The notes under the pieces are model-generated. The model saw only the letters and a list, made by a program, of their open reading frames with translations, searched no databases and was not told where the DNA came from. A stretch of 64,000 nucleotides of DNA from Naegleria gruberi (taxonomy: Eukaryota), in NCBI GenBank assembly GCA_000004985.1, contig GG738865.1, one strand, 5' to 3'. This document shows, piece after piece, positions 6,555 to 13,083 of the stretch. The translations under genes were made by a program, and so were the position numbers. Each line of letters starts with the position of its first letter. Within the stretch, counting starts at the first letter, position 1.

Positions 6555-8092
<1,538 letters not shown>

Positions 8093-8396
8093 AAACATCA
8101 TGTTTAAAAATCTTTACAAAAATGTCCAAGCACTTCTTAACAAGTTGATTCATTACTCTTATCAAGTACTCCACTCCAGTAATTCCTTAATTGTCGGCCA
8201 GCTTAGAGGTTCATTTTCAGTGTGTAGATAACCTCCTTTAGATCTGCAGTAGATCTTTGCTCAATAAGGGCATCAGAAATGAGAGAATAAGGAATAAGGA
8301 TGGACTCCTTTATGGACAATTACGAAAAGATCATCTTTGGTTATTTCACATTGTTAATGTGTTGTTATATGAAATTGTGACAAAATTGTTTTTTAT

Positions 8397-9776
8397 TCAA
8401 GCAATAAGCCCTTGACTTTGCTTCCACTTTTGACCGTGAGAAGCTACTTGTGTTCTTGATCGTGTCTTGACATACTTTTCAGCAATGAGTTTCCAATTGT
8501 TACCACATGCCTCAAGACCTTCGAGGAAACGTTGATGTTCTTCCTCTGTCCACCATCCCTTATGACTACCATTCTTATTCTTGGCAGACAAATCACCCTT
8601 CACACTCGACTTGAGTCTCAGCTTACCAATCTTTTGTTTCGAGTAATTGTTAGCAATGTCAACTTCTTCATCGTCACCTTCAGATTCTTCACTTGGTGTC
8701 GTGGTATTTTGTTTGTTTCCTCTCTTAATACATGCAGAAGCAACCTTCTTGAGCACTTCAACATTTGGACATGTTGTTGATGAGACACTGGCAGTTGTTG
8801 TCGTTATGGTTGGATTCTTCTTCTGGAGCTCTTCCTTACTACTACTTGTCATTGTGGTTTCACTACTAGAAACACCACTCGAATGATGATCGTTGAATTG
8901 ACTAGGGGATGATGAATTACTACTTTTCACATCTGTGCCAATAATTGAGACATTGGAAGAATGGGAAAATCCAGATTCATCCATCAATACATTACTATTT
9001 GGAACGTTTCTAACTGGGCTCAATACAGGTGGTGCTGTAGTTGTAGTGGCTGTAATTGTTTTACAGGCAATTGGCACTGCACATGTCACTATCTGCTGAC
9101 TTGTGGCATGATTAAAAGCAACAATTCTTCCAGTAGTTGGGGAGGTATTCAAAAGTGGGTGTTAAAGTGGTGTTAAAGTTGGTGGTGGACTATTCACATG
9201 ATCCACTACTTTAGAGTTGGTTGTAAAATAATTTGGCTTGTTTACAGTACCTTCCCAAATGGAGTTTTCTCGATATAGTTGTTGAGGTGCTTGATGGGTT
9301 GGATAAACGGAGAATAACGAGGAGTAACGATTGCCAACAACGACATGATGACTCGTAGACGATGATGCAACAACAGGCATTATTGATTGGCTTGTGGTGG
9401 TGGAGTGAGAAAGGGATGGGAGTTGTTGTGGATGATGTTGCATCATCTGTGGTGGTTGTGTTGAAGAATAATTATTATTACATGATGAGGATTGACTGGT
9501 AGTAGGAATGGCTGTACAGGAAATGGTATTAGAGAAGGCATGTGTTGGTCTGGTTAACAAATTAGGATAGTTTGGTGTTGTTGTGGTTGCAGGATATATA
9601 TCTGAAAAGAGTGAAGAAATGGAAGGTAATTGAATAGTGGCAGAACTATTAGTACTGCTGCCACTGTCTTTTGTCAAATGATTCATTGGCTGAATGTATT
9701 GTTGTTGTTGTTGGCTTGCACTCATGAGTGGATTGGTGGTCATAGTATTCATTCTTGTCATGTTATCTGCCATCAT
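8397..9776 (-). CDS. Myb-like (SHAQKYF-class) DNA-binding protein. Two in-frame ORFs (9162..9776 S/T/Q-rich N-terminal part; 8397..9152 Myb part) separated by a single TAA (9162..9164)
   Basis: Myb repeat WTEEEHQRFLEGLEACGNNWKLIAEKYVKTRSRTQVASHGQKWKQ near the C-terminus. The upstream 204-aa ATG-initiated low-complexity ORF is in the same frame, only 3 codons from the TTG-initiated Myb ORF. No GT..AG intron spans the stop. Confidence 0.55.
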
Positions 9777-11314
9777 GATGATTTAATTCGTATGTTCGGT
9801 ATTATCTTTGAAATAATGATATTGCTGCTGCTATTGTGTCAGAGTAACAAAATAGATCGAATATCGAACCTAGTTGTGTGTGTTGTTTTTTTTGTTGTGT
9901 TGCTGAAGATTTAAATGCTTAGTAATCTTGTGTGTGGTTAGCTGTTTGGCGATTTTGGTGCGTTGTTCTTTTGTTGTTCTTTTGACGCAACGCAAAATTG
10001 CTGTCGATTTTTGCATTTTTCACTTTTTGCTTGGAAGAGAATTGTGATAGCTCTTGGTTGGCCATGAGTGAAATGAAAACGCGAGTATTTTGGAGTTTTT
10101 CTGGCCAATCAGAAAAGAGACAGATGATGAGAGGAACTAGCATCGCAACCAAAACATACTTGAGAATGTGATTGAATTGGTCACTAATAAGCATGTTTAA
10201 TTATCCATAGTTTCCATTTGCTGTGGTGACACTACCATGTCACTCAAAGATCTAATATCAGCAAATGGAATGCATCATGTTGCATTGATACATCCTCTTC
10301 TTGAATAAAATCTATCACTATTTCTGTACTGTATAAGAAGATCAATGTCAATGTGAAATAGAGGTTCCCAAAATCAAGTCACACCATCAGTGTCTTTAAG
10401 GAGTTGTGAAATTACAGTGTTTCACACAACACCAACCCACTGAAAAGCATGGTATTACAATTTTCGATAGATAGCTCTATTTTGGGTTGGTACACAAAGC
10501 TTAATCCTTATTGTTGTTTTTACCGTTGATTCTGGGTTGAAAACAGCAAAAATCGCGAATTCCTTCCTAATCGGTAAGTGGATTGTTGAATCTTGCCCTT
10601 GACTACAGTGAATTATTATCTTGGCTATCTTGTAAATATCAACAGCCCATTCCCAACGTCACTGTATCTAACAGACCAGTGAGAATTGGCTCTTTCTGGA
10701 TAATGGTCCAGTAATCAAATCTATTGAGGATGGTCCGTAAATTCCAACAACCATACGGTTGTATCAATGATTTGTGAACAAACAATCTAAGGTTCATATT
10801 GAGTAAAATCACTACAGTCCTATCTGAAATCTTTCTAAATGCAGACTGATATCGTTAATACAATTAATACAATGCAATTTCAAGGGCTCAAGGGTGGTAC
10901 CTCATTGCAGATAAGTGGTTGTGAGGATTACTCAACGAGCACACACACCCTTACTCACTTAGTACTCACTTCATTCAACAATTTGATCATTGTGTTTGTT
11001 GAGCTGATGATAATCTAGTATCCTCTTTTTACGTAATTATTGAAACATAGTTATTCCAACTAAATATTCCACTATTACATTAATAATATTACTCAATATT
11101 ACACCTTACTAGAGGTTTTAACAATGTGAGGTTGGTTAAAAACTGTAAATTACACATGTTAAAAAAACCTAAAATAGATTGATTATCATCACTAGAACGT
11201 ACTGTTAGGAAAATTCGAGATAGTAACCTCTCATTATTGCAAAGTGAATGTTGAATTACCAACGTAACTATAATCAACTATAATAACCATAATTACATGT
11301 TACTATTATTATAA

Positions 11315-12826
11315 TCAGAGTTGATATTCGGAAAATTCAAAACTGAATGGCTCCTTTTCAACAATCATTGAGCCAATTTCATCATTGTCAAGTAATGATT
11401 CGTAACATACTGAAAGACAACAAATACTCTTCAATTTATCCTTAGCACTGTTGAAAAAGATGGATGTGTAATAATTCTTGAAATTTTTCCTCTCGTTTGA
11501 TTTCTTCCACAACCTGACCTTCTTTAATACATGTCTCTCAATGGTATTCTCAATGAGGAGAGGAGATCCCACCATGAGGGAGTGGGAACTAGATGACACA
11601 CATCCATTGTATAAATAGTACAGTACTCTCATGGTGTGAATCAATATGAAATCAATGCTCAATAGATTATACTTGTCCAATTCATAAATCCACCTCGAAA
11701 CGATATGATTCAATACTTTAAAGTTTTTCTTTGGAGTTGGCTCGAGAGGTTGAGGGATTTCAAAATAGTTTGTATTCGATTGTTTGATAAATTTGGGTTG
11801 AATCCACATTGGTTTGAATCTGCCTTCAAATGTTGATATTAAAGACTTGGTTGCTCGTTTCATTCTAATCTTTTTCCAAATATCTGTTATGATTTCTTCC
11901 TCATTGCCACTACTGCCATTACTTCCACTTGATTCTTCTTCATCTTCGCTATCTTGTCTATTTGTATCAATTGTCTTCTTTTTGGCATTTGATAAAAAAT
12001 TCCAATCTTTTCTTTGGTCAACTGGAGAAGAATCAGTACTATTGGGAAAATTTAGTGTTTTTCTTCCTTTTTGAAAAGTTTCTGAATGGATAATCGTCCA
12101 ACAATTATCCTTTCGCTTTGACAATAGTATTGAATCCATTTTCAGTTCGACATCATTCATTGAAAAGAACCAATTTGACATGGTAATTTCACTCCAATCA
12201 CAACAAACTCCCTTCTTTAGTGCACTTCTAAAATCAATTTGTAAAAATTGAGGAATTGGGGCTGAAAATTGGGTTCTTTTCAATCCTCTTATCCAATTAG
12301 GTTCCGTAAAAAAAGACTTTTTATCCACCAACAAGGAACACTTATTAATTGAAAATAGGTAATTTGAAATCATGAGAGTGGCCTGTCTCCTCGTTCTCAG
12401 TTTTGTTTGACTTTTCAAATAAATTTCCAATTGTCTTTGTAAATTTAATTTAAATTCCTCCCTCAATTTAATATCCTCCAATGAGAGGGAATAATTCGGA
12501 TCATCATGAAATCTTTCATTTTGCTCACGATAATTAATTGATTTGTTATAGATAAACACCTGATTGGTGGGCACTAATTCCGAAATATAATTCCAAATAT
12601 TATCAGATAGATAGGGCCACAGAGAGTGAATATCATCCCTATTGATTTTATCATACCATTTATGACAGACAAGACTTGATTGAATTAAAATGGATGGTAG
12701 TGGTAGATAACTCAAAATACTATTGAATAATTCATCAATTTCAAATAAATGGTGCCAAAAGTTTTCCGAAAGGGTCAATTTTGTGGATAAACTTTTTGTC
12801 AAGTTTTTCATTTTTTTTAATTTCAA
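11315..12826 (-). CDS. F-box domain protein (hypothetical)
   Basis: 503-aa ORF with an N-terminal F-box (LFNSILSYLPLPSILIQSSLVCHKWYDKI). The remainder has no recognisable domain. Confidence 0.6.
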   Translation of the reverse strand: MKLKKMKNLTKSLSTKLTLSENFWHHLFEIDELFNSILSYLPLPSILIQSSLVCHKWYDKINRDDIHSLWPYLSDNIWNYISELVPTNQVFIYNKSINYREQNERFHDDPNYSLSLEDIKLREEFKLNLQRQLEIYLKSQTKLRTRRQATLMISNYLFSINKCSLLVDKKSFFTEPNWIRGLKRTQFSAPIPQFLQIDFRSALKKGVCCDWSEITMSNWFFSMNDVELKMDSILLSKRKDNCWTIIHSETFQKGRKTLNFPNSTDSSPVDQRKDWNFLSNAKKKTIDTNRQDSEDEEESSGSNGSSGNEEEIITDIWKKIRMKRATKSLISTFEGRFKPMWIQPKFIKQSNTNYFEIPQPLEPTPKKNFKVLNHIVSRWIYELDKYNLLSIDFILIHTMRVLYYLYNGCVSSSSHSLMVGSPLLIENTIERHVLKKVRLWKKSNERKNFKNYYTSIFFNSAKDKLKSICCLSVCYESLLDNDEIGSMIVEKEPFSFEFSEYQL

Positions 12827-13011: not shown

Positions 13012-13083
13012 TCCCGTGTGGTCCAATGGCTAAGATACCTGGCTCTCACCCAGGAGATCCGGGTTCAATTCCCGGCACGGGAG
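13012..13083 (+). tRNA. tRNA-Glu (anticodon CTC)
   Basis: 72-nt cloverleaf: acceptor TCCCGTG/CACGGGA, D-arm GTCCAATGGCTAAGAT, anticodon stem CCTGG/CCAGG with loop CTCTCAC (anticodon CTC), T-arm GGGTTCAATTCCCGG. Near-identical to canonical eukaryotic tRNA-Glu. Confidence 0.9.

What the first reader, a model, noticed from the sequence alone, without database searches (positions are those of the whole stretch)
9147..9168. Myb gene interrupted by a single in-frame TAA
A 204-aa ATG-initiated S/T/Q-rich ORF (9162..9776) is in the same frame as the TTG-initiated Myb-domain ORF (8397..9152). Only TAA (9162..9164) and 3 further codons separate them. I found no GT..AG intron that removes the stop. The possibilities are a recent nonsense mutation making a pseudogene, a base-call error, or stop-codon readthrough.
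Basis: seen in the sequence. Interest (0 to 1): 0.55.

Follow-up and report, generated by a model that had tools for sequence, protein, structure and literature searches.

The report
Myb gene broken by small duplication
A single-exon Myb transcription-factor gene of the amoeba Naegleria gruberi carries a premature TAA stop, created by a tiny in-frame duplication that a close relative lacks, so this is an ordinary broken allele (or an assembly slip) and not an unusual way of decoding.

Summary
On the minus strand, a 204-codon ATG ORF (9776..9165) and the Myb-domain ORF (to TGA at 8399..8397) share one frame and are separated only by TAA (9164..9162). The window is Naegleria gruberi. A 98%-identical metagenome contig (L001) encodes one uninterrupted 460-aa protein, and the syntenic N. 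lovaniensis and N. fowleri orthologues are uninterrupted single exons. At the site, the window has a net +9 nt relative to L001. This forms an exact 11-nt tandem repeat (ACTTTAACACC x2) and moves a formerly out-of-frame TAA into frame. So the stop is neither a point nonsense mutation nor a single base-call error. TAA is the usual terminator in the window. The 3' context (CACCCA) misses CARYYA, there is no downstream RNA structure, and the stop is absent from all relatives, so programmed readthrough is unsupported. The NCBI gene model avoids the stop with a 318-nt "intron" and fuses the gene to the upstream F-box gene. Real neighbouring introns are 47-51 nt and start with GTATGT, so that model is an artefact. 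Most likely this is a recent loss-of-function allele, possibly heterozygous. An assembly artefact is the main rival, and reads are needed to decide between them. Interest is low.

The parts
8397..9776 (-). Whole gene: a single-exon SHAQKYF-class Myb gene (conceptual 459 codons including the internal TAA, then TGA at 8399..8397)
   Evidence: It is 98% identical over 100% of its length to the uninterrupted 460-aa P0001. The orthologues are single exons.
9165..9776 (-). ORF A: the N-terminal 204 codons (S/T/Q-rich; contains the LPSI motif shared with P0003 and P0005). This is the only part translated if the TAA terminates.
   Evidence: Codon-usage score is +33.6 in frame against -97 to -147 in the other frames.
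9162..9164 (-). The in-frame premature TAA
   Evidence: It is absent from L001.
9158..9179 (.). Exact 11-nt tandem duplication (+ strand GGTGTTAAAGT x2; gene strand ACTTTAACACC x2). The TAA lies in the downstream copy on the gene strand.
   Evidence: There are 2 such duplications in the window against 0.08 expected from shuffles.
9159..9167 (-). Net 9-nt insertion (CTTTAACAC on the gene strand) relative to the intact allele L001, plus an adjacent substitution at 9158 (C in the window, A in L001)
8400..9161 (-). Coding remainder downstream of the premature stop (254 codons). It is in frame and intact, but untranslated if the TAA terminates.
8982..8984 (-). First ATG downstream of the TAA (residue 57 of the table-11 ORF). 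It is the only conceivable independent start for a 195-aa Myb-only product.
   Evidence: No such product is on record.
8421..8558 (-). Myb DNA-binding domain (SHAQKYF class; the motif here reads SHGQKW)
   Evidence: PF00249, E=5.5e-11, 42.8 bits against a cut-off of 24.4. The domain is nearly invariant across the Naegleria orthologues.
8933..9250 (-). The 318-nt 'intron' used by the public gene model (P0002) to skip the stop. I judge it to be an annotation artefact.
   Evidence: It has GTACTG..CACAG ends and 39% GC, whereas real neighbouring introns are 47-51 nt, start with GTATGT and have 18-28% GC. The interval is coding in L001.

Best explanation
The locus is one single-exon gene for a SHAQKYF-class Myb transcription factor of Naegleria gruberi.

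In the copy in this window, a small local duplication added a net nine bases. The likely mechanisms are replication slippage or template switching on the sequence ACTTTAACACC, or an 11-nt tandem duplication followed by loss of 2 nt. In the parental sequence the triplet TAA lies out of frame inside ACT-TTA-ACA (Thr-Leu-Thr). The repeat copy is offset by 11 nt (2 mod 3), so its TAA falls in frame. Because the net length change is 9 nt, everything downstream stays in frame, which is why the two ORFs look like one gene cut by a single stop.

Inferred consequence: ribosomes terminate at UAA after 204 residues, giving a product without the Myb domain or the conserved YSKQKIGKLRLK motif. The downstream 254 codons are silent apart from background readthrough. 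This copy is therefore a recent loss-of-function (truncating) allele, in effect a young pseudogene. It may be one haplotype of a heterozygous strain.

What is shown: the gene's unity, the nature of the lesion, and the intact state in relatives. What is inferred: the direction of the change, that the insertion truly exists in the organism, and its effect on expression.
For: (1) The organism is N. gruberi, and an intact allele exists. P0001/L001 is 98% identical over 100% of the conceptual product and reads ...SPPPTLTP-TLLNTSP... where the window has ...SPPPTLTPL*HPLLNTSP....

(2) At the DNA level, L001 reads CCAACTTTAACACCA|ACACTTTTG and the window reads CCAACTTTAACACCA[CTTTAACAC]CCACTTTTG. In the window this forms an exact 11-nt tandem repeat, of which there are 2 in 64 kb against 0.08 expected. 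Exact tandem copies are the signature of a young duplication.

(3) The orthologues are uninterrupted single exons next to the same TTL gene: N. lovaniensis 438 aa at L002 5001-6317, N. fowleri 501 aa at L003 5001-6506, and a JGI metagenome relative of 395 aa in L004. Parts of the N-terminal half align with them, for example the LPSI motif.

(4) Both halves evolved as coding sequence. Between the window and L001 there are 6 substitutions in 1380 nt of CDS against 17 in 962 nt of flank (p=0.002). The CDS indels are 6, 3, 9 and 3 nt; the flank indels are 1, 1, 1, 1, 4, 2, 3, 2 and 1 nt (p=0.007). Codon usage favours the frame on both sides of the stop.

(5) TAA is the normal terminator in this genome, ending 29 of 42 long ORFs.

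(6) The downstream part carries no further disabling change, so the lesion is recent.
Against: No reads or transcripts could be examined, so it is not shown that the nine extra bases exist in the organism and not only in the assembly.

The polarity of the indel rests on the tandem-repeat signature and on function, not on an outgroup. The more distant orthologues are too divergent at this spot, and two metagenome scans found no other close allele.

The lesion is not explained by one clean event. It needs a 9-nt copy plus one substitution, or an 11-nt duplication minus 2 nt.

The complete integrity of the downstream 254 codons fits a very recent mutation, but it fits an artefact or a still-used reading frame equally well.
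Confidence: 0.62

Rival explanations
1. Assembly or consensus artefact. The nine extra bases are not in the organism. They arose from a mis-called or mis-aligned consensus in the reference assembly, for example reads from two haplotypes that differ by an indel being merged, or a cloning or sequencing artefact at a short repeat. In that case the real gene is intact.
For: Apart from the stop, the gene is perfectly intact downstream, with no other disabling change. An independently assembled close relative lacks the insertion. Naegleria is described as mainly a heterozygous diploid (PMC9928731), a setting in which consensus errors at heterozygous indels do occur. The lesion is not a single clean event.
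Against: A nine-base insertion that forms an exact 11-nt tandem repeat is not a typical base-calling error. L001 is a different strain or allele (23 substitutions and 13 indel events over 2.36 kb), so it cannot vouch for the reference strain. The public annotators were working from the same sequence: the exons of their model match the window, and the model skips the stop.
Confidence: 0.25
2. Functional (programmed or tolerated) stop-codon readthrough. UAA is decoded by a near-cognate tRNA often enough to give useful amounts of full-length Myb protein, so the gene remains functional.
For: The base after the stop is C and the next is A (UAA-CA...). From general knowledge of eukaryotic termination, this is among the leakier contexts, and CACCCA matches 5 of the 6 positions of CARYYA. 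The downstream frame is fully intact.
Against: From general knowledge, UAA is the least leaky stop, and it is the standard terminator here. The R position of CARYYA/CARNBA is not met. The 115 nt from the stop onward have no unusual structure (z=-0.10; 87 of 200 shuffles fold at least as well). The stop and its context are by-products of the duplication: the same TTTAACACC occurs in the first copy. They are absent from the intact allele and from all orthologues, so there is no conservation, which is the hallmark of programmed readthrough. No literature on readthrough in Naegleria was found.
Confidence: 0.06
3. The stop is removed by splicing, as in the public gene model P0002 (intron 9250..8933) or by another 3n GT..AG interval such as 9197..9096.
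For: 249 frame-preserving GT/GC..AG intervals exist, and the NCBI/JGI model uses one of them.
Against: The two verified neighbouring introns are 47 and 51 nt, start with GTATGT, end with TTAAAG and have 18-28% GC. The model's intron is 318 nt, has GTACTG..CACAG ends and 39% GC, and scores as coding in frame. No GTATGT or GTAAGT lies upstream of the stop anywhere in the gene. The interval is translated in the uninterrupted L001 allele and contains the SNVLMDES motif, which aligns with SNALVDEF in P0004. The orthologues are intronless. The same model also fuses the gene to the upstream F-box gene across about 2 kb, which marks it as a prediction artefact.
Confidence: 0.03
4. Gene fission or two products. 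The locus now expresses a 204-aa N-terminal protein and, from the internal ATG at 8984, a separate 195-aa Myb protein.
For: An ATG exists 59 codons after the stop, and the Myb domain and its conserved upstream motif lie downstream of it.
Against: There is no evidence for an internal promoter. From general knowledge, re-initiation after a 204-codon ORF is inefficient in eukaryotes. The 59 codons before that ATG are coding-like and identical in protein to the intact allele. No such product is on record.
Confidence: 0.03

Closest known systems
SHAQKYF-class (single-repeat, R1/2-type) Myb-like DNA-binding proteins, as found in plants, Dictyostelium and other protists
   Same: There is one C-terminal Myb repeat matching PF00249. 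Related Naegleria-like proteins (P0006, P0008) are labelled 'SHAQKYF class myb-like DNA-binding protein' by JGI. The rest of the protein is long, low-complexity and S/T/Q-rich.
   Different: The signature reads SHGQKW instead of SHAQKYF. A Naegleria-specific invariant motif, YSKQKIGKLRLK, precedes the domain. In this copy the domain lies behind a premature stop.
Premature-termination (nonsense) alleles or young unitary pseudogenes created by slipped-strand micro-duplication
   Same: A short exact tandem repeat lies at the lesion. There is a single disabling change, the rest of the ORF is intact, and intact alleles or orthologues exist elsewhere.
   Different: Micro-duplications usually disable a gene by frameshift. 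Here the net change is 3n, and the gene is disabled only because the copied segment brings a TAA into frame.
Programmed stop-codon readthrough (TMV-type UAG-CARYYA; UGA-CUAG in animals)
   Same: An in-frame stop is followed by a long open, coding-like extension, with C at +4 and A at +5.
   Different: The stop is UAA. The hexamer fails the consensus. There is no stimulatory structure. The stop is not conserved in any relative.
Stop-codon reassignment (ciliate or diplomonad code, UAR = Gln)
   Same: There is an in-frame TAA inside a Q-rich protein of an AT-rich protist genome.
   Different: TAA terminates 29 of the 42 long ORFs in the window, and this is the only interrupted gene. The only tRNA gene in the window is Glu-CTC.

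Membership tests
SHAQKYF-class Myb-like DNA-binding protein | A Myb/SANT helix-turn-helix repeat detectable by the Pfam Myb_DNA-binding model above its gathering score | tested here: met
   PF00249, E=5.5e-11, 42.8 bits against a cut-off of 24.4, residues 199-244 of the downstream ORF.
SHAQKYF-class Myb-like DNA-binding protein | SHAQKYF signature in the third helix | tested here: inconclusive
   The sequence reads VASHGQKW, a variant of the motif conserved in all four Naegleria-type orthologues. The class name comes from JGI labels on the more distant hits P0006 and P0008.
SHAQKYF-class Myb-like DNA-binding protein | The domain is actually translated as part of a protein | not testable with these tools
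   The domain lies 203 codons downstream of an in-frame TAA. No expression data are available.
Pseudogene or null allele | A disabling lesion in a gene that is intact in close relatives | tested here: met
   intact L001 allele; intact orthologues.
Pseudogene or null allele | Relaxed constraint after the lesion (excess non-synonymous changes or further disabling changes downstream) | tested here: inconclusive
   There are 5 substitutions downstream of the stop and 1 upstream (p=0.24). All 3 non-synonymous changes are downstream, but the numbers are too small, and there is no second lesion.
Pseudogene or null allele | The lesion is present in the organism's DNA and not only in the assembly | not testable with these tools
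   No reads are available. Look-ups for the exact products and scans for other alleles found nothing.
Spliceosomal intron removing the stop | GT..AG boundaries with frame-preserving removal | tested here: met
   249 formal candidates; the public model uses 9250..8933.
Spliceosomal intron removing the stop | Resemblance to verified introns of the same genome (length, 5' splice-site hexamer, AT-richness) | tested here: not met
   Real neighbouring introns are 47 and 51 nt, run GTATGT...TTAAAG and have 18-28% GC. No GTATGT or GTAAGT lies upstream of the stop in the gene. The model's intron is 318 nt, starts GTACTG and has 39% GC. Only two reference introns were examined.
Spliceosomal intron removing the stop | The interval is non-coding in relatives | tested here: not met
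   The interval is translated in the uninterrupted L001 ORF and is coding-like in frame. The orthologues are single exons.
Programmed stop-codon readthrough | A stimulatory 3' context (CARYYA/CARNBA or CUAG) | tested here: not met
   The context is UAA CAC CCA. The third position is C, not a purine.
Programmed stop-codon readthrough | Downstream stimulatory RNA structure | tested here: not met
   MFE -18.2 kcal/mol against a shuffle mean of -17.9, z=-0.10.
Programmed stop-codon readthrough | Evolutionary conservation of the stop codon and its context | tested here: not met
   The stop is absent from L001 and from P0003, P0004 and P0005.
Programmed stop-codon readthrough | Measured readthrough product | not testable with these tools
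   This needs ribosome profiling, reporters or proteomics.
Variant genetic code (UAA as a sense codon) | UAA is not used as a terminator and occurs frequently in frame within genes | tested here: not met
   TAA ends 29 of 42 ORFs of at least 150 codons; this is the only single-stop interruption in the window.

The most novel reading that the evidence does not exclude
The UAA is tolerated. The duplication happened to create a leaky UAA-CA context in an intronless mRNA, and enough ribosomes read through to keep the Myb factor functional. That would explain why the 254 downstream codons are still flawless. It would be a natural example of a newly arisen nonsense allele rescued by context-dependent readthrough in a heterolobosean, and a possible first step toward a regulated readthrough gene.
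Probability: 0.05. Interest if true: 0.5.

Novelty: new member of a known kind. Interest (0 to 1): 0.15.

Why it matters
The main value is for annotation. The public N. gruberi gene model for this locus is a chimera. It joins part of an F-box gene to the Myb gene and invents a 318-nt intron to dodge the stop. Comparative or pangenome studies that use this protein therefore inherit a wrong sequence.

Biologically, this is a clean small example of how a 3n micro-duplication can still knock out a gene, by shifting a hidden TAA into frame. If reads confirm the insertion, it would also mark allelic loss of function in a strain thought to be heterozygous. It does not bear on any open question about decoding.

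Tried and rejected
(1) Variant genetic code. Rejected, because TAA is the dominant terminator and there is no other interrupted ORF.

(2) Intron removal. I enumerated all frame-preserving GT/GC..AG intervals and compared them with the two real TTL introns. Rejected on length, splice-site sequence, composition, and coding status in the relatives.

(3) Readthrough signals. I checked the hexamer context by eye against CARYYA/CARNBA, the downstream fold and the tRNA genes. Nothing supportive was found.

(4) Search for more alleles or transcripts. Exact-product look-ups for ORF A, the TTG-start ORF B and the ATG-8984 product all returned 'not on record'. A gapped DNA pattern that would match either allele found 0 hits in JGI metagenomes. 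A protein-guided metagenome scan found 0 confirmed loci. The P0002 model itself was not found in the gene-position index.

(5) Literature. The N. gruberi genome paper (PMID 20211133) is not held. Nothing was found for PRJEB11402. No paper on readthrough in Naegleria was found.

(6) Clean deletion of one 11-nt repeat copy as the ancestral state. Rejected, because it shifts the frame and runs into a stop (worked out from the sequence). The intact allele differs by 9 nt, not 11.

Full report
**1. The observation**

The feature lies on the minus strand. An ATG-initiated ORF of 204 codons runs from 9776 to a TAA at 9164..9162. Three codons follow (CAC CCA CTT), and then the ORF that the bacterial-code lister starts at TTG 9152, which ends at TGA 8399..8397. 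The downstream ORF carries a Myb_DNA-binding domain at window 8558..8421 (PF00249, E=5.5e-11). The upstream ORF has no Pfam match.

This is the only place in the 64-kb window, in any frame, where a single stop is flanked by at least 150 open codons on both sides (206 and 254). At the window's stop-trinucleotide frequency (0.059), 254 open codons have a chance probability of about 2e-7, and even the 59 codons between the TAA and the first downstream ATG (8984) have only 0.027. A codon-usage model trained on 26 other long ORFs of the window scores the shared frame positive, and the other five frames negative, for all four segments of the locus.

**2. Organism and genetic code**

The window has 34% GC and is gene-dense. 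TAA terminates 29 of its 42 ORFs of at least 150 codons, so the code is standard.

A protein search with the conceptual read-through product returned a 'predicted protein [Naegleria gruberi]' (P0002) and orthologues from N. lovaniensis (P0003) and N. fowleri (P0005). It also returned a 460-aa protein from an ENA metagenome assembly (P0001) that is 98% identical over 100% of the query.

**3. The gene is one gene**

P0001 is encoded by an uninterrupted ORF on a 2349-nt contig (L001, ERZ929261), which aligns to window 10465..8124. The N. lovaniensis and N. fowleri orthologues are single uninterrupted exons: L002 5001-6317 for 438 aa, and L003 5001-6506 for 501 aa, each exactly 3 x (aa+1) nt. Both lie in the same neighbourhood as the tubulin-tyrosine-ligase-like gene that sits convergently downstream in the window (6992..8092). 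A further relative from a JGI metagenome (L004) is also a single 395-codon ORF.

In the protein alignment, the Myb domain and a preceding YSKQKIGKLRLK motif are nearly invariant. Pieces of the N-terminal half also align: the LPSI motif is shared with P0003 and P0005, and SNVLMDES aligns with SNALVDEF in P0004.

Between the window and L001, the coding region has 6 substitutions in 1380 nt and the flanks have 17 in 962 nt (Fisher p=0.002). The four coding indels are 6, 3, 9 and 3 nt, while the nine flank indels are 1, 1, 1, 1, 4, 2, 3, 2 and 1 nt (p=0.007). Both halves have therefore been evolving as one protein-coding sequence.

**4. What the lesion is**

At the site, L001 reads CCA ACT TTA ACA CCA ACA CTT TTG (P T L T P T L L). 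The window reads CCA ACT TTA ACA CCA CTT TAA CAC CCA CTT TTG (P T L T P L * H P L L). The window thus has a net nine extra bases (CTTTAACAC, a copy of the sequence two bases upstream) and one adjacent substitution (9158).

The result is an exact 11-nt tandem repeat, ACTTTAACACC x2 (+ strand 9158..9179). Exact 11-nt tandem repeats occur twice in the window against 0.08 expected from shuffles.

The TAA inside ACT-TTA-ACA is out of frame in the first copy. The second copy is displaced by 11 nt (2 mod 3), which puts its TAA in frame. Because the net change is 9 nt, the downstream frame is preserved.

It also shows that the lesion is neither a point nonsense mutation nor a one-base miscall. Removing one whole 11-nt copy does not restore the gene: the frame shifts and soon hits a stop (sequence). 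The history is therefore either a 9-nt copy plus one substitution, or an 11-nt duplication minus two bases. I infer that the window state is derived, for two reasons: exact tandem copies are young, and every relative has an open frame. No close outgroup was available to prove the polarity.

**5. Splicing**

The public model P0002 actually uses one. It maps to the window as three blocks: 12181..~11597 (the middle of the upstream F-box ORF), 9599..~9251 and ~8932..8400. That implies an intron of about 2 kb that discards this gene's own start codon and first 59 codons, and a 318-nt intron at 9250..8933 that discards the stop together with 106 codons.

For comparison, I located two real introns in the neighbouring TTL gene by homology with the sister species. 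They are 6757..6803 (47 nt) and 6892..6942 (51 nt). Both begin with GTATGT, end with TTAAAG, and have 18-28% GC.

The 318-nt interval begins GTACTG, ends CACAG and has 39% GC. It scores as coding in frame, is translated in L001, and includes residues conserved in P0004. No GTATGT or GTAAGT occurs anywhere upstream of the stop in the gene. I conclude that the model's introns are devices a gene predictor used to escape the stop, and that the model is chimeric. Only two reference introns were examined, so the intron 'consensus' used here is thin.

**6. Readthrough**

The stop context is UAA CAC CCA. CARYYA and CARNBA both require a purine at the third position, so the match is 5 of 6 and fails. 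C at +4 is, from general knowledge, the leakiest neighbour, but UAA is the tightest stop.

The 115 nt from the stop onward fold no better than shuffles (z=-0.10). The only tRNA gene in the window is Glu-CTC. The context is simply the copied sequence (TTTAACACC occurs in both repeat copies), and neither the stop nor the context exists in L001 or the orthologues. The key criterion for programmed readthrough, conservation, is therefore not met. A literature search found nothing on readthrough in Naegleria. Background readthrough cannot be excluded, and if it occurred it would produce a full-length protein three residues longer than the intact allele's product at this site.

**7. Real mutation or artefact**

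This could not be settled. L001 differs from the window by 23 substitutions and 13 indel events over 2.36 kb. It is therefore another strain or allele and cannot validate the reference. No transcript- or read-derived product matching either reading was on record.

Naegleria is described as mainly a heterozygous diploid (PMC9928731). A heterozygous null allele and a consensus error at a heterozygous indel are thus both plausible. Apart from the stop, the downstream 254 codons are flawless: 2 synonymous and 3 non-synonymous differences across the whole CDS, and no second lesion. This fits a very recent mutation, but it fits an artefact equally well.

I put about 0.62 on a real, recent truncating allele, 0.25 on an assembly artefact, and the remainder on readthrough, splicing or gene fission.

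**8. Comparison with known things and verdict**

The protein belongs to the single-repeat SHAQKYF-type Myb family. The Pfam criterion is met, and the signature here is the variant SHGQKW.

The lesion belongs to the familiar class of slipped-strand micro-duplications that disable genes. There is one small twist: the net change is a multiple of three, and the knockout comes from carrying a hidden TAA into frame.

Nothing here points to a new decoding mechanism. The practical outcome is a corrected gene structure: a single exon, 9776..8397, disrupted at 9164..9162, with the upstream F-box gene kept separate. Interest is low (0.15). In kind, this is a new instance of a known phenomenon.

Noticed in passing
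window 11597..12181 and 8400..9599 (minus strand): The public N. gruberi protein P0002 (488 aa) is a chimeric model. It joins residues from the middle of the upstream F-box ORF (11315..12826) to the Myb gene across about 2 kb. This drops the Myb gene's own ATG and first 59 codons, and also drops the C-terminal part of the F-box ORF.
   Followed up: partly
window 6757..6803 and 6892..6942 (+ strand): The tubulin-tyrosine-ligase-like gene has two very short introns (47 and 51 nt, GTATGT...TTAAAG, 18-28% GC) upstream of its 366-codon main exon (6992..8092). Its first exons lie around 6675..6756 and 6804..6891. The start of the gene was not determined.
   Followed up: partly
window 9962..9983: This is the only other exact 11-nt tandem duplication in the window (+ strand GTTGTTCTTTT x2). 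It lies about 190 nt upstream of the same Myb gene's ATG. L001 differs here (…AAAAGAGGAGCAACCAAAAGAACAAC…), so this small region also carries indel and duplication polymorphism between the two alleles.
   Followed up: partly
window 13012..13083 (+ strand): A tRNA-Glu (anticodon CTC) gene, the only tRNA found in the window. It lies just beyond the F-box gene.
   Followed up: no
L002 543..4541, L003 470..4525 and L003 6578..7816: Synteny is only partial. In N. lovaniensis and N. fowleri the Myb gene is preceded by two Glyco_transf_61 genes, whereas in the window the upstream neighbour is an F-box gene. N. fowleri also has a Ras/Roc-type GTPase gene inserted between the Myb and TTL genes.
   Followed up: no
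window 8595..8630 (minus strand; residues YSKQKIGKLRLK): A 12-residue basic motif about 18 residues upstream of the Myb repeat is almost invariant in all four Naegleria-type orthologues (11 of 12 positions identical), although the rest of the protein outside the Myb domain is poorly conserved. It might be a nuclear-localisation signal or a DNA-contacting arm. This was not tested.
   Followed up: no
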